From Escherichia phage vB_EcoP_Bp7: 52,615 nucleotides of DNA. Positions 1 to 23,501 of the stretch are shown piece after piece; the first letter of the stretch is position 1; the number at the start of each line of letters is the position of its first letter. Location: the sequence record NC_079181.1; one strand, written 5' to 3'. A program made the position numbers and the translations under genes. The notes under the pieces are model-generated. The model had not been told where the DNA came from. It made no database searches and saw only the letters and a list, made by a program, of their open reading frames with translations.

Positions 1-1941
1 ATGACTACTATCACCACTCAAACTATCAAATCCGTTGTTCCTGCTATCACTGCTCTGGTATATCGTGCCAAAGAGAAACAGAACTATATGCAGCCTCAGA
101 CTTGTGCTATTGCTGCCTTAGCCATCTTCAAGATGATGACGTCTTTCACTCGTGATGACGTTGTTCCTGCCATCGCGATGGTTGAGCTGGCTTCTGCTTC
201 TATTGCTGATGCCAACCGTTATAACAACGATTTGAAAGCAATGCACTATGTTGACCCAGCTATCAACCTGATTGGTTTGGCTAAGCACTTTGGCTTCATC
301 ACCATGAACGAAGACAAGTCATTCCAACAAACTGATACATGGGTTGAACTGGTTACAACCAAAGACACAGCAGTGCCATTCACTGAGCGTGTTACATCTG
401 AATCTCGTCGCAAGCCTTTCGTTAAAGGTGGCAAAGTTAAGCCATCCAAAACTCTGAAAGCTGCAATCGAATTCCTGCAAGATACTGAGTACCATGTGGA
501 GACTGAGATGGTTCGCATCATCCAGTCCATGCTTGAACAACGTACCTACGGTGGTTTGCAGATGCCAGAAGCAATCCAGACTGAACTCCATGTTTGGAAC
601 AATGCTGTAGCAATGATGAATCAGGACACACTGTATTCTGATTACTTTGCTGATAACCGTGGTCGTCTGTATCACGTAGCATGTGCTGGTCCTAACCCAC
701 AATCATCTGACTTTGCTCGTTGCTTGTATTCTCACAATGTTGAGAACATCGTTAAGAAGTTTAACGAAGATGGTTCTACTACCATTGCATACAACATGTT
801 CATGGCAGAGCTGGAAGATATTTCTGGTGGTGAATGGTGCAGTGCTAAGCGTTTAACTTATGTTGCTCAGAATCCAGCTGGTTCACTTGCTCGCATGATG
901 AACATGCCTAAAGCTGAACGTCCTTCTAAGCCATTCACTTATGTTCGTCTGGCTCTGGATTGGTTCAAGTTTGAGACTACAGGTGAGTGCGATTCTCGTG
1001 TAGGCTTTGGCTTAGATGCTAAATGTTCTGGTACTCAATATCTGGCATTCATTGCTGGTAACATGGAAATGGCTCGTGCAACAGGTCTGGTTGATTCTGA
1101 GACTAAAGCATCTGACCCATACCAGTTGAGTCTTCGTGAACTGTTGAAGCTGCTGGACAAGTCTTCAATGAAGCCATCTCCTGAAATCATGGATGAATTC
1201 TTGAATCCGAAAGCTGGTCGTAAGTTTATCAAAACTCCGTACATGGCTATCCAATACGGTGGTGGTAAAGCTGCACTAACTGGTTCATCTGACTTCATCA
1301 GCTACATGACAGAAGCACTCCAGATTCCTATGGAGAAAGCAGAAGCATTTGCTGAACTGTGTGTGGAAGCAATCCATAACGCATTGGGTGCTAAGATTAA
1401 CATGTTCATTGAGAAAGCTGCTGAAGCTGCATACAACCGTTGTGTTGAACTTGGTAAAGAGTACATCACATATCGTCACACTGATGGTCAGGTTGTAATG
1501 AAGCCTTGCTTCCCATCTCGTGAAATCTGTGAGGCATTCAGCATTCGTGTTGATAGTCAAACTCGTGTTATCTTTGGTCAGATTCAGGAGAATAAGCCTT
1601 GGACCATTCGTGAATCCAATCCAACTAAAGAAGAATTCAAGCGTACTTTCGTTGTTAACTACATTCAGGGCATTGATGCACTTGTTGCTCGTACTGTTGC
1701 AGTTAAAGCTAAAGAAGCTGGTCTTCGTGGCTTCACTTCAATCCATGATTGTTTCCGTTGCTGTTTGGCAGACGCTCCACGTATGATGGAAGTTATTCGT
1801 GCAGCATATGTTGAAATCTTCGTAACCAACAATCAGTTCGAGAATCTGTCTAAGCAACTCGGTGGCATTCAGATGTATCATGAGAACATCGTAACTGAAG
1901 AGCTTCTGATGAGCGAACACGCTTACTACTTCTGTCAATAA
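1..1941 (+). CDS. T7-like single-subunit DNA-dependent RNA polymerase, compact (646 aa)
   Basis: Palm motifs in translation: motif A GFGLDAKCSGTQYLAF, motif B RKFIKTPYMAIQYGGGK, motif C SIHDCF. ATG at base 1; a GGAG lies 8 nt upstream across the window junction (52604-52607) if the sequence is circularly contiguous. Confidence 0.9.
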   Translation: MTTITTQTIKSVVPAITALVYRAKEKQNYMQPQTCAIAALAIFKMMTSFTRDDVVPAIAMVELASASIADANRYNNDLKAMHYVDPAINLIGLAKHFGFITMNEDKSFQQTDTWVELVTTKDTAVPFTERVTSESRRKPFVKGGKVKPSKTLKAAIEFLQDTEYHVETEMVRIIQSMLEQRTYGGLQMPEAIQTELHVWNNAVAMMNQDTLYSDYFADNRGRLYHVACAGPNPQSSDFARCLYSHNVENIVKKFNEDGSTTIAYNMFMAELEDISGGEWCSAKRLTYVAQNPAGSLARMMNMPKAERPSKPFTYVRLALDWFKFETTGECDSRVGFGLDAKCSGTQYLAFIAGNMEMARATGLVDSETKASDPYQLSLRELLKLLDKSSMKPSPEIMDEFLNPKAGRKFIKTPYMAIQYGGGKAALTGSSDFISYMTEALQIPMEKAEAFAELCVEAIHNALGAKINMFIEKAAEAAYNRCVELGKEYITYRHTDGQVVMKPCFPSREICEAFSIRVDSQTRVIFGQIQENKPWTIRESNPTKEEFKRTFVVNYIQGIDALVARTVAVKAKEAGLRGFTSIHDCFRCCLADAPRMMEVIRAAYVEIFVTNNQFENLSKQLGGIQMYHENIVTEELLMSEHAYYFCQ

Positions 1942-7101: not shown

Positions 7102-7120
7102 ACATTAGTTGATTGTGAAT
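7102..7120 (+). promoter_or_regulatory. phage promoter-like motif P2 (acattagttgattgtgaat)
   Basis: Part of a ~65-bp intergenic module (7055-7120) duplicated at 7446-7509. Confidence 0.55.
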
Positions 7121-7138
7121 AATAATTGGAGAATAAAG

Positions 7139-7450
7139 ATGGCAAAAGTTCTGAACTATTCGAAAGTTAAAGGTGTTCACAACAACGCAGTGTATATCGG
7201 TCGAGATATGAAGGGAATTGCTGGAAACAAGAAATTCCACAATCCTTTTAAAATGTTTAAAGAAAGCCAGAGAGACTACGTGTGCGAAGAGTATCGCAAA
7301 TATTTGTGGAAACAAATTAAATCTGGTGAAGTAACAATAGATGATTTGCTGGCATTAGATGGCAAAGATTTAGTTTGTTGGTGTGCCCCAGCACGCTGTC
7401 ATGGCGATACAATAATGGCCGCAATAGAGTGGGCGAAGAAGCAACGTTAA
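7139..7450 (+). CDS. conserved phage protein, possibly DUF4326-like (103 aa)
   Basis: ATG at 7139 with GGAG 7 nt upstream; C-terminal LVCWCAPARCHGD motif. Family assignment is from memory, not a search. Confidence 0.5.
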   Translation: MAKVLNYSKVKGVHNNAVYIGRDMKGIAGNKKFHNPFKMFKESQRDYVCEEYRKYLWKQIKSGEVTIDDLLALDGKDLVCWCAPARCHGDTIMAAIEWAKKQR

Positions 7451-7490: not shown

Positions 7491-7509
7491 ACATTAGTTG
7501 GATTTGAAG
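7491..7509 (+). promoter_or_regulatory. phage promoter-like motif P3 (acattagttggatttgaag)
   Basis: Conserved motif about 75 bp upstream of the 7583 gene. Confidence 0.55.
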
Positions 7510-7582: not shown

Positions 7583-7960
7583 ATGGCACAATATTCAGAT
7601 GTAAACACTGGCATCATCGGTCCTAACGGCTTCAAGAAAGACCCAAAACATCCCGACATTCGTGGGCGTATTAACGTTGACGGAATCTGGTATTGGGTAT
7701 CTGGTTGGAACAAGCAAGCAAATGGTAATGAGTTTACCTCACTTGCATTAACCATCATGACTCAGGAACAGGTTGATGAAATGATGCGTAAGCGTGAGGA
7801 GAAAGCTAAAGCCAAAGCTCAACCTCAAGCTGCCGCTCAACAGCAACAGCAACGTCAACAGCCGACTCAGCAGCAACAAACTCAGGCACAACAGCCTCAG
7901 GGAAATTCTGCATACAACCCAAATGAGCCGAAAGACTTCGACGACGACATTCCGTTCTAA
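7583..7960 (+). CDS. small protein with Q-rich linker and SSB-type acidic C-terminal tail (125 aa)
   Basis: C-terminus ...DFDDDIPF matches the E. coli SSB tail; ~70-aa N-terminal domain then a QQQQ-rich linker. Confidence 0.6.
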   Translation: MAQYSDVNTGIIGPNGFKKDPKHPDIRGRINVDGIWYWVSGWNKQANGNEFTSLALTIMTQEQVDEMMRKREEKAKAKAQPQAAAQQQQQRQQPTQQQQTQAQQPQGNSAYNPNEPKDFDDDIPF

Positions 7961-8057
7961 TGGAGATGCCCTATGAAAATTTTATGTTTTATAGGGCTAC
8001 ATAATTGGGAAATTTCACACGAAAACGATTATGTAACCATTTGGGTGTGCAAACACT

Positions 8058-8987
8058 GTGCAGCAATGCGTGAGGAATATCATGGACAATAAGGTTATCG
8101 AAATACCTGCCAACTTGGTTAAAACTGGCGACATTGTATTTCATGATGGTAGAGGGTATCCGATTGTACACATCAACAGACTTAGTGGTGTAGTTCAGCT
8201 ACAATACTCTGGCGGATTCTTTAACTTTGAGTTGGGCCGTATAGTCAGAGTATTGGAAAAACGTCCCACTACAGAATCTTTTACAAAGCCTACCACAACC
8301 CGTGCAGTATTGGCGCATGAAGTACGACCTGGAAACATTTTATCTTACGGAATCAGATTCTTTGAGATAAAGGAAGTTAAAGACCTTGGAGAAATACCTG
8401 AAAATGTGGTTCGATTAACCCATGTAACAGGATACTTTGACTTTTCACCCAACCGCATAGTCCACATTGTTAATACGCCACCAGCACAGGAAACTCCTAC
8501 GGTGAAGTTCGATACTCAAATAAAGCCAGTGTTCCTTCCATATGAGGAAGCGGTGAAACCATTCTCAGATGAAGAGGATGTTCTTGGAAAAGATTTGGAA
8601 GTTGGTGATATTATTTGGGTCAATAATACTTGGGCCACTATAACAAATATGTATAAACATCCAAATTCACCATTTAATAAAGTGAATGTGGACTATGATG
8701 GCGTTAAAGGTTTACAAGTGCGCCTCACATTAACTGGAACATTTTCAAGAAAGGTAAGGGCAGTTATGGAAACATTATATATTCAAAATGCAATCGAAGC
8801 ACAACGTATTCTTCTGCAAAAGCTCGAGCAAATGCTGGAATTAGCGCAGCTCCTACCAACAAAAGATGGCAAGATTGCAATCAGCAACTGCAACATTCGC
8901 GTGGACAAGGCATCAATCACTAAAGCCGCACGCGATGAAATGAAAGTTGCTGCAAGCAAATCCGCAGAACTTATCAAGAAGCTGTAA
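8058..8987 (+). CDS. hypothetical protein with three internal repeats and a C-terminal coiled coil (309 aa)
   Basis: Repeated modules around TGDIVFHDGRGYPIV / PGNILSYGIRFF / VGDIIWVNNTW; alternative ATG at 8082. Confidence 0.55.
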   Translation: MQQCVRNIMDNKVIEIPANLVKTGDIVFHDGRGYPIVHINRLSGVVQLQYSGGFFNFELGRIVRVLEKRPTTESFTKPTTTRAVLAHEVRPGNILSYGIRFFEIKEVKDLGEIPENVVRLTHVTGYFDFSPNRIVHIVNTPPAQETPTVKFDTQIKPVFLPYEEAVKPFSDEEDVLGKDLEVGDIIWVNNTWATITNMYKHPNSPFNKVNVDYDGVKGLQVRLTLTGTFSRKVRAVMETLYIQNAIEAQRILLQKLEQMLELAQLLPTKDGKIAISNCNIRVDKASITKAARDEMKVAASKSAELIKKL

Positions 8988-10281: not shown

Positions 10282-10572
10282 ATGGAGCATCCGATGAATT
10301 ACGAAGATATTCCAAGAGAGTTGAATGCACTAGAGTCAAGAACCATCCGTGCAGAGAATATTCTCCACCAGCACCTATCAATTAACGTGGGTGATGAAAA
10401 GAAGATGCAGTACACTATGGAACTTGACGATGTAGTCTACACTGTCAGTTACAACGAGAAGGCTGCTATCCTCAGTGCACTTATCAAAGGTGGGAATGAG
10501 CGAATCAATCAACTTAAGATTCTGGACAAAGAATTGAGAGGTACTTGGGAGAAACTAAATGCAAAACGATAA
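10282..10572 (+). CDS. hypothetical protein (96 aa)
   Basis: ORF from the track. Confidence 0.5.
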   Translation: MEHPMNYEDIPRELNALESRTIRAENILHQHLSINVGDEKKMQYTMELDDVVYTVSYNEKAAILSALIKGGNERINQLKILDKELRGTWEKLNAKR

Positions 10573-11107
10573 CATTACTCAAGCAGTAGAACAACTTAAG
10601 TCCTGGCGTAGAGATGAAACCTTATTGGTTCGTTTCTACACAGGCGAAACTAATTCTGAATTTGTAGATGCGTGGATTGATGGCCTGTCTTGGCGTCACT
10701 ATGATTTCGACATGCGGGAGTATTTGCATGAAGAATATGGCATTGAATATCCAGAAACCGGTACATACGACGTAATTGAATCAAATGAAGAGGATGTTAC
10801 CGAAGTTTGCTTTGCCAATGGCCTATTCAGTATTCGTAAATATGATAAGTTCAATGAGCTGCTTGTTGACACCGATTTGGATGTAATTCTTGCAGCATTC
10901 CGCAGCGGTGAGATTGATATTTTCACTGTGGATGATTTGAACGATATGTTCATCACACGTTGCGACTCAATTACAGAGTATTTGAAGCAAAGTGAGGCAC
11001 TGGATATTCCAGACCGCCTTGCACCATATATTGATTGGGATGCAATCACCAGAGATTATGGAAGTGACTACATTTTCTCTGAGGGAATACTGTTCTTAAA
11101 TGCGTGA
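10559..11107 (+). CDS. highly acidic protein (182 aa)
   Basis: Very D/E-rich throughout (e.g. EEDVTEV, DTDLDV, DIFTVDDLNDMF). Confidence 0.55.
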   Translation: MQNDNITQAVEQLKSWRRDETLLVRFYTGETNSEFVDAWIDGLSWRHYDFDMREYLHEEYGIEYPETGTYDVIESNEEDVTEVCFANGLFSIRKYDKFNELLVDTDLDVILAAFRSGEIDIFTVDDLNDMFITRCDSITEYLKQSEALDIPDRLAPYIDWDAITRDYGSDYIFSEGILFLNA

Positions 11108-13517: not shown

Positions 13518-13536
13518 ACATTAGTTGGATGTGGAA
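13518..13536 (+). promoter_or_regulatory. phage promoter-like motif P6 (acattagttggatgtggaa)
   Basis: Conserved motif about 75 bp upstream of the 13612 gene. Confidence 0.55.
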
Positions 13537-13611: not shown

Positions 13612-13950
13612 ATGGCTAAGATTGTAACCGTAACTCAGTACGAAGCTAACGATGGTTCCCTGTTCCTGACCGAAGCAGAGTGTAATGCACATGACTTCAA
13701 ACTGGAAAACGGTGCTAAAATTGAGAAAGCTGCCGAAGCGTACCTGAACACCGTTGGCGCTATCGACCGTTCTCGCTCCATGCAGAAGAACACCATCGAG
13801 CAGTTCCTGGCATTCTACCTGCCGTGGGTTGAAGCTGGTGAGCCGGAAGTTGAGCGTACTAAGTTCGATACTCCGAAAGAAGCTAAAGTTGCTGACGCAA
13901 GTGTTGCCGAAGCTGCCGAAGCTGCTGTTGAAGAAGCTCCGGTATTCTAA
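13612..13950 (+). CDS. hypothetical protein with acidic C-terminal tail ending in Phe (112 aa)
   Basis: Strong SD (TAAGGT); E. coli-like high-expression codons; C-terminus AEAAEAAVEEAPVF. Confidence 0.65.
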   Translation: MAKIVTVTQYEANDGSLFLTEAECNAHDFKLENGAKIEKAAEAYLNTVGAIDRSRSMQKNTIEQFLAFYLPWVEAGEPEVERTKFDTPKEAKVADASVAEAAEAAVEEAPVF

Positions 13951-17497: not shown

Positions 17498-19261
17498 ATG
17501 AACGTCAAGCAATGTGTGGCTAAGATTAAGCACGATGTACCAGACTGTAAATCCACATCTGGCAAGTCTTTACAGGTTTGGTTGAATGTCGATGAAGCTG
17601 GTAATAAGAACTTCTCTGGTTACTGCTTTGCGTGTGGCGTTCTAGTACCAAATCCTTATGGCAATAATCCAGAGAACATTCCAGAGATTAAAGTCAAAAC
17701 TCCAGAAGAAATTCAGGAAGAAGTTGATGAAATCACTGCTTGTCCTCCGTTTGATTTAACCCATCGCAGCATTGAGCCGGAGTTCTGGAAAGCTGCTGGT
17801 GTCCGACTTCTGTATTCAGAGTATGATGGGAAGACTCCAAATGCTCTGGCGCATGGCTACACCAAAAATGGTAAACTTGTTCGTTGGAAGATTAAACTTC
17901 TGAACAAGAAAGTCATGTGGTCAGTTGGCGACACCCAGGGTAACGACCCTTACAACTGGATGGCTGCAAAAGCAATTGGCGGTAAGACACTGTTCATCAC
18001 AGAAGGTGAAGAAGACTGTATCGCATTGCGTCAAATCCTCAAAACTATGAACCGTGGTGGTGCATACGAAGATTTGGATTTTGCTGTAATTAGTTTGAGT
18101 GACGGGAGTGATTCCGTACACAAATGTTTGTCACCAGTTGCAGAAGAAATTAAGCAACGTTGGGAGCAGGTTGTTATCGTATTTGATGATGATGAACCTG
18201 GACGTAAAGCTGCAAAAGAAGCGTGTCGATTGTTGCCTGGTGCAATGATTGCAACACTTCCAGCTAACGATGCCAACGACTGTTTGAAGCGTGGCTTGCT
18301 CAAAGCTACTCAATCTGCTGTTGTATTCCGTGCTGCTCGTCCTCTACCTACAGCACTTGTCAACAAAGAACTTCTTATGGAAGAACTTGATGATGAGGTT
18401 GAACAGGGTGTGGATTATCCTTGGCCCAAGTTAACCGACTTAATGTTTGGTCAACGTCGAGCCGAAGTTATCACAATCGGTGGTGCAGAAGGTGGTGGTA
18501 AAACTACGCTGTCCCGTCAGATTGTGCATCACAACATTACCAAGCATGATTGGGGAGTGTTTACTGCATACATGGAGGAAACTCCTACAGAAACATTGCG
18601 CCGAATGGCTGGCCTCAATGACAACTTGCCATATTGGGAACCTGCGTTTACTCGTGAAGACCCTCGATATGATGAAGCTAAGTTCCGTCAAACTGCTGCG
18701 AAGATGCTTCGTAACATGGAGATTTGGGACCGCAAGCAAGCTGGAGAAGACCCTTATGAAACTTGGGATGGGTTAAAGACGATTCTTCGTCAGATTGGTC
18801 CAGACATTGATATGTTTGTTCTCGATAACTTAACCTACTTATCGGAAGGGATTTCTGCGTCAGAGAAGAACGACTTTCTGGGCAAGCTGTATGCAGACAT
18901 TACAAAGTTAGCAGACCAGTACCAGTTCCACGTTAATATCCTGTCGCACCTTAACCCTGTTGCAAAAGGTCAGCGACCTCATGAAGATGGTGGACGTATT
19001 AAGAAGTCAGACTTTACTGGCTCCCGTGCTGCTGCCAAATATTCTCATGGTATGTTTGGCTTTGAGCGTAATAGCCAGGCAGTTGACCCAAACTGTTCTA
19101 TCATTCGTTCCATTAAGGCTCGTAAGAGTGGTAAAACAGAAGGCTTCAAGACATATTACGACACCGAATCTGGTCGAATCATTCAACGTTCTTGGGATGA
19201 CTCGCTGTTCGAAACCAAAGAGATTGTTCAACTCACCAGGAAGAACGGTCCACACCAATAA
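17498..19261 (+). CDS. T7 gp4-like primase-helicase
   Basis: N-terminal zinc motif (CKS...CFACG), TOPRIM-like FITEGEEDCIALRQ, Walker A GGAEGGGKTT. Confidence 0.85.
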   Translation: MNVKQCVAKIKHDVPDCKSTSGKSLQVWLNVDEAGNKNFSGYCFACGVLVPNPYGNNPENIPEIKVKTPEEIQEEVDEITACPPFDLTHRSIEPEFWKAAGVRLLYSEYDGKTPNALAHGYTKNGKLVRWKIKLLNKKVMWSVGDTQGNDPYNWMAAKAIGGKTLFITEGEEDCIALRQILKTMNRGGAYEDLDFAVISLSDGSDSVHKCLSPVAEEIKQRWEQVVIVFDDDEPGRKAAKEACRLLPGAMIATLPANDANDCLKRGLLKATQSAVVFRAARPLPTALVNKELLMEELDDEVEQGVDYPWPKLTDLMFGQRRAEVITIGGAEGGGKTTLSRQIVHHNITKHDWGVFTAYMEETPTETLRRMAGLNDNLPYWEPAFTREDPRYDEAKFRQTAAKMLRNMEIWDRKQAGEDPYETWDGLKTILRQIGPDIDMFVLDNLTYLSEGISASEKNDFLGKLYADITKLADQYQFHVNILSHLNPVAKGQRPHEDGGRIKKSDFTGSRAAAKYSHGMFGFERNSQAVDPNCSIIRSIKARKSGKTEGFKTYYDTESGRIIQRSWDDSLFETKEIVQLTRKNGPHQ

Positions 19262-19326: not shown

Positions 19327-21261
19327 GTGTTGTATCCTTGGGAAAATATGTATGCCAGTGACATTGAAACAACTGGCCTGTTGGAGCAAATGCGCAAGCA
19401 AGCTGCACCACGTCTTCACAACATTGGATATATTGATGTTCTGACTCGTGAAGAAACTGTAATAGAATGGACCGACAGAAAGTCTATCCAGGCATTTCTG
19501 GATACAGGCCCGACACTAATCATGCACAACGGCGCAACCTTTGACTTTGAAGCACTGAGGTTCCTTGGTTACGACGTTTCAAAGTGTACACTGATTGATA
19601 CTTTGTTTATCAGTTGGTATCTGCAACCTCGTCGTGTTAAGCACGGCTTAGAAGGTTACGGTGAAGAGTTTGGTGTGCCAAAACCAGTCATTGAAGATTG
19701 GGAAAATCAAACTCAAGAAGAATACAACCATCGTGTGATGGAAGACTGCAAGATTCAGTTGAAGCTGTGGGAACAGCAATACATTCAACTCTTGAAGATT
19801 TATAAATCTCCTAGCGAAGTTAAGCGCTTCGTTGAATACCTGATGACAAAAGCTCGTCAGCAAGTTATTCAGCAACGCACTCGCTGGAAGCTGAACATTG
19901 AGAAGGCATTGGCATTTAAGGCCAAGCTGGAGCCAATGATTAAAGAGAAGACGGACGCATTGGAAGCATCAATGCCTCGTGTTCCAGAATATGTTATCAA
20001 AACCCGTCCAGCTAAATGCCACAAGATGAACGGGCAACTGTCTGCCACTGGAATTAAGTGGAAGGCTATTTGTGATGCGAACGGTTTGGACTGGAAAGAC
20101 CCAGACCTGGCTATCAAAGTTCTTAAAGGCTATAAGAAGCCTAATGCTGGTTCACATGTTCAAATCAAAGACTGGTTATTCAGTCTTGGTTGGGAGCCAG
20201 AAACTTTTAAATTTGACCGCAACAAGGAAACAGGTGAAACTCGCCAGATTCCACAAATCACTGTGAAGGATGAAGATGGCAATCCTGAAATATGTCCGAG
20301 CTTGCATAAGTTGGCGGAAAGAAACCCCGACTCTGGTATTCAACATCTTATTGGGATGGGCGTGTATAAACACCGTCTGTCTGTTGTTAATGGCTTCCTT
20401 CGCGACGTCGATGAGGATGGGTTCCTTACTGCACGATGTGGTGGCCTTACCAATACTTTACGCCTTAAACATCGCGAACTTGTTAACCTCCCTTCTATTC
20501 GTGTATTTGGCGGTGAAGAACTGCGTTCAATGCTGGAAGCGTGGCGTGAAGACTACGAACAGTTAGGCTCTGACTTGTGCTCTCTGGAAGACCGTTGTAA
20601 ACACCACTTCCAGTGGATGTATGACCCTGAGTACGTTAAGAAGCAGTTGGCACCAGACTATGATGCTCACCTTGCAATCGGCGTAATTGGCGGATTTATT
20701 ACAGAACAAGAATCTCAGGACCACAAGGACGGAATTAAGAAGTGTAAACAACGTCCAATGTTTAAGACCACGAACTATGCTTGTCAGTATGGTGCTGGTG
20801 TACCGACTGTAGCTCGTTCTGCTGGCTGTGACCAGACTACTGCTGCACGACTGCATAAAGCATATTGGGACTTGAACTGGTCTATTAAAGAGATTGCTGC
20901 AAACACTAAAGTTATCACAGTTGATGGTCAGATGTGGCAACAGAATCCAGTAAACAAATTCTGGTATTCGCTGCGTACAGAGAAAGACCGATTCTCCACA
21001 TTGTGTCAGGGTACTGGTGCATATGTGTTTGATGTATGGTGTAACAACATTATTGCAATTTGCAACGAACGTTGGGGCTGTGACCCGCTTCTGTCTGGAC
21101 AATTCCACGATGAATTGATTCTCCAGGTTAAGAAAGGCTTCCGTGATTTGTGGACGGACTTGCTTAATGAGGCAATGGACCGAACCAACAAAGAACTTAA
21201 ACTTAACCGTGATTGTGCATGTGATGTACAATTTGGCGATAACTACGCAGAGATTCACTAA
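19327..21261 (+). CDS. family A DNA polymerase with 3'-5' exonuclease domain
   Basis: Exo I DIETTGL; motif B RPMFKTTNYACQYGAG; motif C FHDELIL. GTG at 19327 with GGAG 7 nt upstream; alternative ATG at 19348. Confidence 0.9.
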   Translation: MLYPWENMYASDIETTGLLEQMRKQAAPRLHNIGYIDVLTREETVIEWTDRKSIQAFLDTGPTLIMHNGATFDFEALRFLGYDVSKCTLIDTLFISWYLQPRRVKHGLEGYGEEFGVPKPVIEDWENQTQEEYNHRVMEDCKIQLKLWEQQYIQLLKIYKSPSEVKRFVEYLMTKARQQVIQQRTRWKLNIEKALAFKAKLEPMIKEKTDALEASMPRVPEYVIKTRPAKCHKMNGQLSATGIKWKAICDANGLDWKDPDLAIKVLKGYKKPNAGSHVQIKDWLFSLGWEPETFKFDRNKETGETRQIPQITVKDEDGNPEICPSLHKLAERNPDSGIQHLIGMGVYKHRLSVVNGFLRDVDEDGFLTARCGGLTNTLRLKHRELVNLPSIRVFGGEELRSMLEAWREDYEQLGSDLCSLEDRCKHHFQWMYDPEYVKKQLAPDYDAHLAIGVIGGFITEQESQDHKDGIKKCKQRPMFKTTNYACQYGAGVPTVARSAGCDQTTAARLHKAYWDLNWSIKEIAANTKVITVDGQMWQQNPVNKFWYSLRTEKDRFSTLCQGTGAYVFDVWCNNIIAICNERWGCDPLLSGQFHDELILQVKKGFRDLWTDLLNEAMDRTNKELKLNRDCACDVQFGDNYAEIH

Positions 21262-21533
21262 TGAAAACTGTATATTCTATTTTCGATATGCAGGAATTAG
21301 AGCACCATATGTTTGCTACTGATTCCGAAGTTCCGGCAAAGGACGCTGTAATGGCGTTCCTTGAAAAGATTAAGGACGAAGTGTTCGCTTCTTCTGACCC
21401 ACAGTCTCAAGCATTCAACGATGAGACATTCAAAAACATCCAAACTTTAATCTCGGCAACTACTTCAATTGAAGAGCTGTCCGAAGCATTAGTTGGATAT
21501 GACTTCCGACTTGCTGTGTTGCAGGTCGACTAA
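21261..21533 (+). CDS. hypothetical protein (90 aa)
   Basis: ORF with ATGA overlap to the polymerase stop. Confidence 0.5.
   Translation: MKTVYSIFDMQELEHHMFATDSEVPAKDAVMAFLEKIKDEVFASSDPQSQAFNDETFKNIQTLISATTSIEELSEALVGYDFRLAVLQVD
21486..21504 (+). promoter_or_regulatory. phage promoter-like motif P10 (gcattagttggatatgact)
   Basis: Conserved motif inside the 3' end of the upstream ORF, 60 bp before the 21564 gene. Confidence 0.45.
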
Positions 21534-21563: not shown

Positions 21564-22430
21564 ATGGCATTTGCTGCTCCTACACTGGCCTCGAACAAGA
21601 CTCCTTCTGCTGCACCATTACTGGAAGCGGGTGGTTATCCTGCTCGTGTTTGCCGTATTATCGACCTGGGCTTACAGCCTGGTTCTGCTAAATATCCTAC
21701 TCCGTCCCTGAAACTTCTGGTGACTTTCGAACTGCTCGACGAGTACATGAAAGAAGTTGACAGCGAAGGTAAAATGGTCATGGTCCAAGACCCAGACGAA
21801 GATGACGGCATCATGATGGCGAAGAATCTTGAAGACAAGCCGCGTTGGTTTGACTTTGAGTTTACCTATAATGCTGACGGCTTCATGGGTGAGAACTCCC
21901 ACATCTACAAATTCGCTAAAGCGATTGATGCACTGGAAGTTAAACCTAATCTGGAACAAGGCATTCAGGGCCATCCTGCCAAGAACCTGCCGGATTGGTT
22001 GGGCGAACCTCTGATTGTTGGCATTGTTCAGTATACCAAGCAGTCAGGTAAGAATGCTGGCCAGGTTGCAAACAAAGTTGCTACCTTCTCTCCGATGAAA
22101 TCTAAGGAGAAGAAAGAAGCTAAAGCTCTGGTTAACCCGACTGTCTTCTTTGACATGTCCGAGCCGGACTTAGAAGTATTCAACAAACTGCCAGGTGGCG
22201 AATCTCCGTATGCAATCAAGAACCGTATTACTTCCGGTGTTGATTTCTACAAGACTAAGCTGTCTGCAATGTTAGGCGGTAAACCTGCCGATGAAGGCGC
22301 TGTACCGAATCAGGCTTCTGATGAAGAAGTTGATGCAGCTATGAAAGCTGAACTGGAAGCACAGGCTGCTGCAAAAGCACAGCGTGAAGCGGAAGGTGGT
22401 GCTGCTGGCGGTACGGGTATGCCGTTCTAA
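21564..22430 (+). CDS. abundant hypothetical protein in the replication module (288 aa); ssDNA-binding role speculative
   Basis: E. coli-like high-expression codons; acidic and Ala-rich C-terminal region ending GMPF; followed by a strong terminator. Confidence 0.55.
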   Translation: MAFAAPTLASNKTPSAAPLLEAGGYPARVCRIIDLGLQPGSAKYPTPSLKLLVTFELLDEYMKEVDSEGKMVMVQDPDEDDGIMMAKNLEDKPRWFDFEFTYNADGFMGENSHIYKFAKAIDALEVKPNLEQGIQGHPAKNLPDWLGEPLIVGIVQYTKQSGKNAGQVANKVATFSPMKSKEKKEAKALVNPTVFFDMSEPDLEVFNKLPGGESPYAIKNRITSGVDFYKTKLSAMLGGKPADEGAVPNQASDEEVDAAMKAELEAQAAAKAQREAEGGAAGGTGMPF

Positions 22431-22440
22431 CTATAAATAT

Positions 22441-22465
22441 GGCTCCTTCGGGAGCCTTTAATTTT
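22441..22465 (+). terminator. intrinsic terminator
   Basis: GGCTCC-TTCG-GGAGCC hairpin followed by TTTAATTTT. Confidence 0.8.
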
Positions 22466-23501
22466 GGAGCTTACCAAAGTGAGTAAGAAACGGGTTTTGT
22501 TGCTGGTTGACGGCGACATGGTTGCATTCAGTCACTGTGCTGCTGAGGAATACGGCAAAGATTCAGAAGATATTAACTTTGCTAAGATTCAAATGTCAAT
22601 GGATTCCAAGATGGAATTCCTTGCGAAACGTGTAGGCGCTACAGAAGTAGTTACCTGCATTTCACCATCCAAAACATTCCGTAACGTCCTTGCCGAGAAT
22701 TACAAAGGCAATCGTGATGATGTTTGGCGACCAGAAAACTTGAAGAATGCGAAAGCACACCTTATGGTTGCCTGGAACGGTGTGTGGATGAAGGGTCTGG
22801 AAGCAGATGACCTCCTTGCTGTATTCGCACGTCATGAATACGAAATGACAATGGGCAAACGTAATGAGATTAAGAGCCTCAAGCGCATTGGTCCTTGCAC
22901 ATATGATGAAGTCTGGATTGCGTCGTTGGACAAAGACTTGCGACAAATCGGGCAGAATGGTGGTGCTGGTCCAGTAATTAAACATTACCAATGGGAACGA
23001 GAAACCCAGGGTATTGGTGAGAAGGTTGTAACTCCGAAGGATTACGGCGAACTCAAACTAATCATCAAGGACAATGGCAAGTCGAAGAAGAAAGAAGTTA
23101 AAGGCAATGGCCCTAAATTCTTCTTGCATCAATTGCTTATCGGCGACTCAACGGATAATGTTATGGGTTGCGGAGTTCTTGAAGAAAGAATCTACAAAAC
23201 TGGTGCCAAAGCTGGTGAAACTTATTTCCGTCGTGATGGCATTGGTGCAGTTGCTTCATTCGAAATGCTGGATGGTACAACCTCCTATGCAGAAGGTTTG
23301 AAGAAAGTTATTGGTGCATATATTATGCGCTTCGGGGATGGTTGGGAACAAGAGCTGCTCAAAGTGGGCCGTCTTGTTTACATGCACCATCAAATTGAAA
23401 AGGGTAATTGTGTTCGCTTGTGGCATTACAAAAACATTAACGAATACTTTGACCTTAAAGAGAATCGTATCCTTACTCAAGAAGAGTACCTCCAGAAATA
23501 A
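22464..23501 (+). CDS. 5'-3' exonuclease / flap endonuclease (T7 gp6-like)
   Basis: N-terminal KRVLLLVDGDMVAF resembles the PIN-like metal site of 5'-3' exonucleases; likely true start GTG 22479 (GGAG 9 nt upstream). Confidence 0.65.
   Translation: MELTKVSKKRVLLLVDGDMVAFSHCAAEEYGKDSEDINFAKIQMSMDSKMEFLAKRVGATEVVTCISPSKTFRNVLAENYKGNRDDVWRPENLKNAKAHLMVAWNGVWMKGLEADDLLAVFARHEYEMTMGKRNEIKSLKRIGPCTYDEVWIASLDKDLRQIGQNGGAGPVIKHYQWERETQGIGEKVVTPKDYGELKLIIKDNGKSKKKEVKGNGPKFFLHQLLIGDSTDNVMGCGVLEERIYKTGAKAGETYFRRDGIGAVASFEMLDGTTSYAEGLKKVIGAYIMRFGDGWEQELLKVGRLVYMHHQIEKGNCVRLWHYKNINEYFDLKENRILTQEEYLQK

What the first reader, a model, noticed from the sequence alone, without database searches (positions are those of the whole stretch)
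7583..7960. Small protein ending in the exact E. coli SSB C-terminal tail (DFDDDIPF)
The 125-aa product has only ~70 aa of globular N-terminus, a Gln-rich linker and then DFDDDIPF, the tail motif through which E. coli SSB recruits its partner proteins. It is either a minimal phage SSB or a decoy that competes for host SSB partners. Two other replication-region proteins also end in acidic stretches with terminal Phe (13612..13950 ...EEAPVF; 21564..22430 ...GMPF), reminiscent of T7 gp2.5 and gp4 tails.
Basis: partly seen in the sequence, partly recalled or inferred. Interest (0 to 1): 0.55.

Follow-up and report, generated by a model that had tools for sequence, protein, structure and literature searches.

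The report
Non-OB phage SSB-like protein, host tail
A small phage protein carries the exact tail that E. coli's single-stranded-DNA-binding protein uses to recruit its partners, but the tail is attached to a little beta-sheet domain that is not the usual SSB fold, so it probably belongs to a widespread, uncharacterised type of phage SSB.

Summary
ORF 7583..7960 encodes 125 aa ending DFDDDIPF, identical to the E. coli SSB tip. It has a 17-Gln linker and a ~58-aa globular N-domain followed by one helix.

The window is a complete Chaseviridae (phiEcoM-GJ1/ST32-like) myophage genome. GenBank relatives and PHROG 7364 already call this gene "SSB". That label comes from annotation transfer; I found no biochemistry and no solved structure.

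What is new is the fold:
- The N-domain shows no sequence similarity to the SSB OB core, to any PDB chain or to any Pfam family.
- AlphaFold gives four strands plus a helix.

The family is large: 1,692 clusters at 50% identity. About two thirds of the best 149 end in an SSB-type tip. Relatives sit beside DNA polymerase I/DpoZ, helicases, an Erf/Rad52 annealing protein, an exonuclease and NinB/Orf, which is where phages usually keep an SSB gene.

Best reading (0.6): a dimeric, non-OB ssDNA binder that presents a host-type SSB tail to host and/or phage partners. A pure decoy is not excluded. ssDNA binding is inferred, not shown.

The parts
7491..7507 (+). Phage-RNA-polymerase promoter motif ACATTAGTTGGATTTGA, 76 nt upstream of the ATG
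   Evidence: Zero mismatches to the 17-nt consensus derived from promoters annotated in phage SA91KD. 9 matches in the window against 0.03 expected. SA91KD has an annotated promoter at the same place before its SSB gene.
7583..7960 (+). CDS of the 125-aa SSB-like protein (stop codon included)
   Evidence: PHROG 7364 E=1.7e-42. 53 close homologues, nearly all on ~52-55 kb Chaseviridae contigs.
7592..7756 (+). Conserved beta core (aa 4-58): strands 10-14, 26-32, 35-46, 49-58. Family-wide motif N-x-G-x-L..N..K....HPD..G...V.G..YW.SGW.K......F.SL
   Evidence: AlphaFold pLDDT 82-93. Conservation over 161 domains: G28 100%, W42 99%, P24 98%, K/R18 98%, G10 96%. No Pfam or PDB sequence match.
7757..7819 (+). 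Amphipathic, charged helix (aa 59-79, MTQEQVDEMMRKREEKAKAKA)
   Evidence: Helix 61-79 in the model. Conserved within Chaseviridae (M59, T60, Q61, D65, K70, K74 invariant) but present in only about a third of the wider family and absent from the tandem relative.
7820..7933 (+). Disordered Gln/Pro/Ala-rich linker (aa 80-117), comparable to the intrinsically disordered linker of E. coli SSB
   Evidence: 17 Q of 38 residues. pLDDT below 50. The profile aligns linker plus tip to residues 134-178 of E. coli-type SSB chains, E=7e-5 and 5e-4.
7934..7957 (+). C-terminal tip DFDDDIPF, identical to the E. coli SSB-Ct
   Evidence: Conserved across the family: 76 of 149 representatives end in acidic-[IVLM]PF and 23 more in PF.

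Best explanation
This is the phage's own single-stranded-DNA-binding protein of a non-OB type. Shown by computation: the gene has its own phage promoter. The product is a ~55-residue four-stranded beta domain (plus one helix in this lineage), a disordered Gln-rich linker and the exact host SSB tip. The same head-linker-tip design is kept in a family of more than 1,600 sequence clusters in phages. Some members carry two heads in tandem that are predicted to close into one 8-stranded barrel. Inferred: single-head proteins such as this one pair up as homodimers to form the same 8-stranded unit. The invariant aromatic and basic residues on the strands (Y37, W38, W42, F51; K18, R29, K44) stack on bases and contact phosphates of ssDNA. 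The linker plus DFDDDIPF tip then works as on E. coli SSB, as a flexible tether that docks into the SSB-Ct pockets of partner proteins. Candidate partners are host ExoI, RecQ, RecO, PriA, the chi subunit, Ung and DnaG, and/or the phage's own T7-like primase-helicase, family-A polymerase and 5'-3' exonuclease. This would bring those partners to phage ssDNA during replication and recombination.
For: The tip and linker match E. coli SSB and are conserved in all Chaseviridae homologues. About two thirds of the 149 best distant representatives also carry such a tip, so head and tip have been kept together over long divergence. Neighbourhoods of relatives are those of an SSB gene: directly before DNA polymerase I in vibriophage VP2; helicase, then DpoZ-type polymerase, then this gene, then PurZ in Klebsiella K21lambda1, Salmonella PMBT28 and Acinetobacter DMU1; directly after an Erf/Rad52 annealing protein; after an exonuclease; before NinB/Orf; after a UvrD-type helicase. 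A promoter motif lies 76 nt upstream, which fits a protein needed in quantity. No canonical SSB (Pfam PF00436) was found among the other tested ORFs of 90 aa or more in the early and replication regions. Aromatic residues are dense and conserved in the head: 6.7 per domain, W42 in 99%. Indirect experiment from the literature: adding the PMBT28 helicase together with the PMBT28 gene those authors call ssb raised 2-aminoadenine incorporation in E. coli (PMC12944874; bioRxiv 10.1101/2025.10.22.683976). That ssb is taken to be the PMBT28 family member because of the helicase-polymerase-ssb gene order.
Against: No member of the family has a published ssDNA-binding assay or a solved structure (literature searches). 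The head carries only about +1 net charge. The PMBT28 experiment added helicase and ssb together, so it does not isolate this protein. The phage also encodes a 288-aa protein of unknown function between polymerase and exonuclease, with its own promoter and a flexible tail ending in Phe; that protein could be the main SSB. The models rest on shallow alignments (21 and 25 sequences), and dimerisation is not modelled.
Confidence: 0.6

Rival explanations
1. Decoy or hub: the protein does not coat ssDNA. It is made in bulk to present free SSB-Ct tips that occupy the SSB-binding pockets of host enzymes (ExoI, RecQ, RecJ, PriA, Ung and others). This would shield phage DNA ends and gaps from host nucleases, or starve the host replisome and repair systems of their SSB contact. 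The head would serve only for dimerisation or for binding some other target.
For: The tip is identical to the host's and the similarity runs into the preceding residues (NEP-x-DFDDDIPF), which points to host pockets. The head is very small and only weakly basic. The gene sits in the early, host-takeover part of the genome, about 10 kb upstream of the replication module. A preprint proposes that another phage SSB-like protein with an FDDDIPF tail may compete with or displace host ExoI (SbcB) on ssDNA (bioRxiv 10.64898/2026.04.29.721553).
Against: A decoy needs only the peptide, yet a specific aromatic-rich head is conserved with it across more than 1,600 clusters. In other phages the gene sits inside replication or recombination operons, next to polymerases and annealing proteins, not among host-takeover genes. 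Tandem duplication of the head (12 of 149) is typical of nucleic-acid binders that need two binding surfaces.
Confidence: 0.2
2. Minimal canonical SSB: the head is a highly diverged OB fold, homologous to bacterial SSB or T7 gp2.5, and the whole protein descends from a host ssb gene.
For: The C-terminal 40-45 residues align to E. coli-type SSB. The family profile has a weak local match to the Shiga toxin B subunit, which I recall is an OB fold (E=0.34).
Confidence: 0.05
3. Same ssDNA-binding protein, but the tail works mainly inside the phage's own T7-like replisome, as the acidic Phe-ended tail of T7 gp2.5 does with gp5 and gp4. Its identity to the host tip is then a by-product of a shared docking chemistry. 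This is not exclusive of the best explanation.
For: The phage encodes a gp4-like primase-helicase, a family-A polymerase, a 5'-3' exonuclease and a ligase. From my own knowledge, not tested here: in T7 the E. coli SSB tail can functionally replace the gp2.5 tail. Two more phage proteins with flexible Phe-ended tails each have their own promoter, suggesting several tails that compete for one docking site.
Against: Exact identity to the host tip, extending upstream (NEPPMDFDDDIPF in the Erwinia, Vibrio, Salmonella and Klebsiella phage versions), is more than an acidic-plus-Phe tail needs. The family also occurs in temperate-type phages that lack their own polymerase.
Confidence: 0.3

Closest known systems
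E. coli SSB (bacterial SSB family, Pfam PF00436)
   Same: Disordered Gln/Pro-rich linker followed by the identical tip DFDDDIPF. The C-terminal ~40 residues align with E=7e-5 to 5e-4. Presumed role as an ssDNA-bound recruitment hub.
   Different: The DNA-binding head is unrelated in sequence and in predicted fold (4-strand meander of ~55 aa against a ~115-aa OB fold). Predicted dimer or pseudo-dimer rather than tetramer. No DNA-level sign of recent capture from ssb.
T7 gp2.5 (phage SSB with acidic, Phe-ended tail)
   Same: Small phage-encoded protein in a T7-like replication setting (single-subunit RNA polymerase, gp4-like primase-helicase, family-A polymerase). Flexible acidic tail ending in Phe.
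   Different: From my own knowledge, gp2.5 is a 232-aa OB-fold protein; here there is no OB fold. The tip here is the host's exact motif rather than a phage-specific acidic run.
PC4-like ssDNA binders (human PC4, phage T5 PC4 homologue 4bg7, YdbC, Whirly, Pur-alpha)
Atypical SSBs of protein-primed phages (phi29 p5, GA-1, Bam35 B35SSB)
   Same: A precedent for small phage SSBs whose fold is not a recognisable OB fold and that use aromatic stacking plus basic residues (PMC8276246).
   Different: No sequence relation. Those proteins are predicted as 5 strands plus helix (OB-like), and that paper describes no bacterial SSB-Ct tip on them.
Bas52_0087, phage SSB-like trigger of DRT10
   Same: A phage protein with an FDDDIPF tip proposed to interfere with host ExoI/SSB transactions (bioRxiv 10.64898/2026.04.29.721553).
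   Different: More than 350 aa, with two predicted OB folds; unrelated head.
DUF736 (Pfam PF05284)
   Same: The only Pfam family that recurs among relatives: 14 of 112 at E<0.1, best 3e-4, aligned over the same core region.
   Different: All hits are below the gathering score and the window protein itself has none. DUF736 has no known function. tblastn of the head found nothing in the plasmid collection.

Membership tests
Bacterial SSB (PF00436 / E. coli SSB type) | N-terminal OB-fold ssDNA-binding and oligomerisation domain | tested here: not met
Bacterial SSB (PF00436 / E. coli SSB type) | Intrinsically disordered Gly/Gln/Pro-rich linker | tested here: met
   Residues 80-117: 17 Q, 5 P; pLDDT below 50. 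Aligns with the SSB linker.
Bacterial SSB (PF00436 / E. coli SSB type) | C-terminal acidic tip ...DFDDDIPF (SSB-Ct) | tested here: met
   Identical 8 residues; conserved in homologues.
Bacterial SSB (PF00436 / E. coli SSB type) | Preferential, high-affinity ssDNA binding | not testable with these tools
   Needs biochemistry. Only indirect support from gene context.
OB-fold superfamily in general (including T7 gp2.5 type) | Five-stranded Greek-key barrel with a helix between strands 3 and 4 | tested here: not met
T7 gp2.5-like phage SSB | Acidic C-terminal tail ending in an aromatic residue | tested here: met
   DFDDDIPF.
PC4-like / Whirly superfamily | [quoted passage not shown] | tested here: inconclusive
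PHROG 7364 / 18154 ('single strand DNA binding protein') | Significant match to the family profile | tested here: met
   E=1.7e-42 and 7.1e-18. Distant relatives hit the same two PHROGs. This is membership by sequence; the function name of the PHROG is itself untested.
DUF736 (PF05284) | Score above Pfam's gathering threshold (22.1 bits) | tested here: not met
   No hit for the window protein. 14 of 112 relatives give sub-threshold hits, best E=3e-4.

The most novel reading that the evidence does not exclude
[quoted passage not shown] The head is a ~55-residue four-stranded beta meander that dimerises, or is duplicated, into an 8-stranded barrel. It is evolutionarily unrelated to the OB fold but has been joined to a bacterial-type disordered linker and SSB-Ct tip. 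The class is widespread in phages (about 1,700 clusters at 50% identity), including the 2-aminoadenine (Z-genome) phages, where it sits between DpoZ and PurZ. It lets phages plug their own ssDNA coat straight into the host's SSB interaction network.
Probability: 0.45. Interest if true: 0.75.

Novelty: new variant of a known kind. Interest (0 to 1): 0.58.

Why it matters
Almost all well-studied SSBs use an OB fold, and the bacterial SSB tip is regarded as the handle by which about 20 genome-maintenance proteins find ssDNA. A natural protein that joins that exact handle and linker to an unrelated, much smaller head would show that the tail is a portable module which phages have combined with a different DNA-binding scaffold. 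It would provide a minimal system (about 60 ordered residues) for separating DNA coating from partner recruitment. It would also supply the unstudied SSB component of the Z-genome replication cassettes (helicase, DpoZ, ssb) now being used to make 2-aminoadenine DNA in E. coli. Finally, it would flag a large family that carries an SSB name in databases with no fold assignment or experiment behind it. If the protein is instead a decoy, it would be a compact natural inhibitor of SSB-partner contacts, which are being explored as a target for antibacterial drugs.

Tried and rejected
1. Canonical SSB or OB homology. Pfam, a PDB sequence search with the head profile and with a 112-member family profile, and hhalign against the E. 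coli SSB core all gave nothing. Rejected.

2. Recent capture of the host ssb 3' end. blastn against 5,426 E. coli genomes matches only the last 27-34 nt at E about 0.4. No support.

4. Shiga toxin B hairpin match (VDGKEYWTSRW; E=0.34; Pfam SLT_beta in 2 of 112 members). Judged a chance local similarity.

5. P0055, the third-best hit of the deep search (1,158 aa, 21 'domains'), is a translated tandem repeat and not a relative.

6. ORF 21564..22430 as a T7 gp2.5 homologue. There were no PDB or Pfam hits for its profile. Not demonstrated.

7. Plasmid or ICE relatives, via the DUF736 lead. tblastn of the head in 72,556 plasmids gave no match.

8. The AlphaFold-database Foldseek library was unavailable.

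9. Nine literature searches found no paper that characterises this family.

Full report
**1. What is in the sequence**

ORF 7583..7960 on the + strand starts with ATG and encodes 125 residues: MAQYSDVNTG...NEPKDFDDDIPF. The last eight residues are identical to the C-terminus of E. coli SSB as held in PDB entries 1eqq and 7f2n (...SNEPPMDFDDDIPF). A direct BLASTP gives 9 of 10 identities over the tip. Residues 80-117 contain 17 Gln, 5 Pro and 5 Ala out of 38.

**2. Where the window comes from**

The window is a complete genome of a Chaseviridae myophage. It belongs to the phiEcoM-GJ1 / ST32 / Bp10 / SA91KD group (Carltongylesvirus-like) and is 84-98% identical to those phages around this gene.

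- All genes lie on the + strand.
- The genome encodes a T7-type single-subunit RNA polymerase (1..1941, annotated as such in the relative SA91KD).
- It has a T7-like replication module: ThyX, a Toprim/DnaB-type primase-helicase (17498..19261), a family-A DNA polymerase (19327..21261), a 5'-3' exonuclease (22464..23501), an HNH endonuclease and an ATP-dependent ligase.

In the GenBank records of relatives this gene is already labelled 'single-stranded DNA-binding protein'. It matches PHROG 7364 (E=1.7e-42) and PHROG 18154, which carry that name. The ST32 paper lists the gene as an SSB from BLAST alone (PMC6266442). The vibriophage VP2 record says its version is 'similar to Vibrio cholerae SSB', which can only refer to the tail. 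I found no biochemical or structural study of any member.

**3. Expression signal**

The 17-nt motif ACATTAGTTGGATNTGA is taken from the phage promoters annotated in SA91KD. It occurs nine times in the window, all on the + strand, against 0.03 expected. One perfect copy lies at 7491-7507, 76 nt before the ATG, where SA91KD has an annotated promoter in front of its SSB gene. The gene therefore heads its own phage-polymerase transcription unit.

**4. The head is not an SSB OB domain**

Sequence evidence:
- Pfam gives only low-complexity noise from the Gln linker.
- A profile of the whole protein hits E. coli-type SSB chains only over linker plus tip (profile positions 81-121).
- A profile of the head alone finds no PDB chain, even at E<=10.
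- hhalign of the head against the E. coli SSB core gives a probability of 0.25%.

Structure prediction:
- AlphaFold2 with 21 homologues gives strands 10-14, 26-32, 35-46 and 49-58 and a helix at 61-79. The core pLDDT is 82-93, and everything after about residue 85 is disordered. This is a four-strand meander followed by a helix. It is not the five-strand Greek key with an internal helix that defines an OB fold.
- Foldseek against viral models retrieves only uncharacterised relatives, plus the 'SSB' of Vibrio phage JSF9.

**5. A natural experiment on how two heads pack**

My inference is that single-head members such as the window protein form the same unit as homodimers. The Chaseviridae-specific helix may add to the interface. 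This step is inferred, not modelled.

**6. The family is large and keeps head and tip together**

A profile of the head searched against 1.84 billion representatives finds 1,692 proteins at E<=1e-3 and 98 at E<=1e-10. Nearly all are 60-200 aa long. One top hit is a translated tandem repeat and was discarded.

Of the 149 best, 76 end in acidic-[IVLM]PF, 23 more end in PF and 13 more end in F.

Over 161 aligned heads the conserved positions are G28 (100%), W42 (99%), P24 (98%), K/R18 (98%), G10 (96%), N15 and G34 (94%), Y/F37 (90%), K/R44 (89%), W38 (82%) and F/Y51 (80%), in the motif N-x-G-x-L..N..K....HPD..G...V.G..YW.SGW.K......F.SL. Each head carries on average 6.7 aromatic residues and a net charge of about +1.

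The only Pfam family that recurs among relatives is DUF736, always below threshold (14 of 112, best E=3e-4).

In cultured phages the family occurs in about 140 of 50,697 records. These fall into three groups: Chaseviridae, VP2/VP5-like vibriophages, and PMBT28/K21lambda1/DMU1-type siphophages that carry a PurZ-type adenylosuccinate synthetase. No match was found in 72,556 plasmids.

**7. Gene neighbourhoods say 'SSB slot'**

| Relative | Neighbouring genes |
|---|---|
| VP2 | Directly upstream of DNA polymerase I; an SF2 helicase lies a little further up |
| Klebsiella K21lambda1, Salmonella PMBT28, Acinetobacter DMU1 | Helicase, DNA polymerase, this gene, PurZ-type adenylosuccinate synthetase |
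| Metagenomic P0112 | Overlaps the end of an Erf/Rad52-type annealing protein gene |
| Metagenomic P0125 | Overlaps the end of an exonuclease gene, in a CI/Cro, RusA and primase-helicase region |
| Metagenomic P0084 | Directly before a NinB/Orf recombination mediator |
| Metagenomic P0079 | Follows a UvrD-type helicase |
| Metagenomic P0076 | Near a Sipho_Gp157 gene |
| Metagenomic P0071 | Near a YbcO gene |

Two contexts were uninformative.

Two papers report that adding the PMBT28 helicase and 'ssb' to DpoZ and the dZ cluster raises 2-aminoadenine incorporation in E. coli plasmids (PMC12944874; bioRxiv 10.1101/2025.10.22.683976). The gene order indicates that this 'ssb' is the family member. 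Helicase and ssb were added together, so the effect cannot be assigned to ssb alone.

**8. Origin of the tail**

In the Erwinia, Vibrio, Salmonella and Klebsiella phage versions the similarity to host SSB extends to NEPPMDFDDDIPF. The Acinetobacter phage version ends DLDDDLPF.

At the DNA level only the last 27-34 nt of the window gene resemble E. coli ssb genes (E about 0.4). There is therefore no sign of a recent capture. Old capture and convergence cannot be told apart here.

**9. Mechanism proposed**

Shown by computation: the architecture, the conservation, the promoter, the non-OB prediction and the gene contexts.

Inferred:
- The protein dimerises into an 8-stranded unit.
- It binds ssDNA through the conserved aromatic and basic residues.
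- The linker and tip act as a tether that docks into SSB-Ct pockets.

Which partners are used is open. They could be host SSB-interacting proteins, the phage's own T7-like replisome, or both.

I put 0.6 on 'non-OB ssDNA-binding protein with a functional SSB-Ct', 0.2 on a non-DNA-binding decoy, and 0.05 on a hidden canonical OB fold. The reading in which the tail is used mainly by the phage replisome is a variant of the first, not an alternative to it.

**10.

- ORF 13612..13950 (112 aa) ends AVEEAPVF. Its terminal Phe is invariant in relatives from E. coli, Erwinia, Proteus and Aeromonas phages, while the Ala/Glu-rich tail before it varies.
- ORF 21564..22430 (288 aa) lies between the polymerase and the exonuclease and ends GGTGMPF. 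That is not acidic in this phage, but the wider family ends in an acidic run plus PF, PY, PW or W.
- Both ORFs are preceded by the phage promoter motif, at 13518 and 21486.
- Both have unknown function: PHROG 17419 for the first, PHROGs 862 and 6599 for the second, with no Pfam or PDB hits.
- The 288-aa protein could be a second SSB or an annealing protein. I could not fold it.
- Terminal Phe overall is not clearly enriched (6 of 70 ORFs against about 2.8 expected), and the primase-helicase has no such tail. The T7 gp2.5/gp4 picture is therefore only a loose analogy.

**11. Verdict**

The gene is already named 'SSB' in databases, so the label is not new. The novelty lies in what stands behind the label:
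- a head predicted to be unrelated to the OB fold;
- joined to the complete bacterial SSB C-terminal module;
- in a large family with no Pfam family, no solved structure and no assay.

I rate it a new variant of a known kind, with interest 0.58.

Noticed in passing
window 21564..22430 (promoter motif at 21486-21502): A 288-aa protein between the DNA polymerase and the 5'-3' exonuclease, with its own phage promoter. The family (PHROG 862/6599, 'unknown function') has a conserved N-terminal G-x-Y-P-A-R motif and a disordered tail that ends in an acidic run plus PF/PY/PW/W in most members (here GGTGMPF). No Pfam or PDB sequence hits. It is a candidate second SSB or annealing protein.
   Followed up: partly
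window 13612..13950 (promoter motif at 13518-13534): A 112-aa protein of unknown function (PHROG 17419) that appears to form a single-gene unit. It has a conserved 89-aa head and a variable Ala/Glu-rich tail whose last residue is Phe in E. coli, Erwinia, Proteus and Aeromonas phage versions.
   Followed up: partly
window 2267, 7102, 7491, 11411, 11552, 13518, 21486, 41024, 52532 (all + strand): Nine copies of the phage-RNA-polymerase promoter-like motif ACATTAGTTGGATNTGA (0.03 expected by chance). Together they give a transcription map of the genome.
   Followed up: partly
L003 6001-6336, L004 5001-5342, L005 3992-4294 (Klebsiella K21lambda1, Salmonella PMBT28, Acinetobacter DMU1): In siphophages carrying a PurZ-type adenylosuccinate synthetase (2-aminoadenine, Z-genome type) the same small protein family sits between the DNA polymerase and PurZ. 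It is therefore the 'ssb' used in published dZ-incorporation constructs, and it is likewise not an OB-fold SSB by sequence.
   Followed up: partly
window 7109..7450: The gene just upstream encodes a DUF4326 protein (Pfam E=7e-22) and has its own weaker promoter-like motif at 7102-7118.
   Followed up: no
window 10559..11107: A 182-aa protein with a weak, sub-threshold ArdA antirestriction match (E=0.0035). It is annotated 'antirestriction protein' in relatives.
   Followed up: no
window 7974..8093 and 8058..8987: Two ORFs follow the SSB-like gene on the same strand, with no promoter motif in between, so they may be co-transcribed with it. One is a 39-aa Cys-containing ORF, annotated in SA91KD. 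The other is a 309-aa protein of unknown function (PHROG 20048 over its C-terminal half). Its best start codon is uncertain, because the mechanically listed GTG at 8058 overlaps the small ORF.
   Followed up: no
phage record PP952070.1 (hit H16/H34): A record named 'Staphylococcus phage Pel53' (host S. hyicus) is about 85% identical at the DNA level to this coliphage group and carries the same gene. The host assignment looks doubtful.
   Followed up: no
protein P0055 (deep-search hit 3): A 1,158-aa 'protein' made of 21 near-identical ~55-aa repeats scored E=1.6e-28 against the head profile. It looks like a translated tandem DNA repeat, so it is a false positive to bear in mind when counting family size.
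   Followed up: yes
family profile positions 31-48 (window aa ~29-46): A local 18-residue resemblance between the family's central hairpin (INVDGxEYWLSGWxK) and Shiga toxin 2 B subunit residues 20-37 (TVKVDGKEYWTSRWNLQP). E=0.34, judged to be chance.
   Followed up: partly
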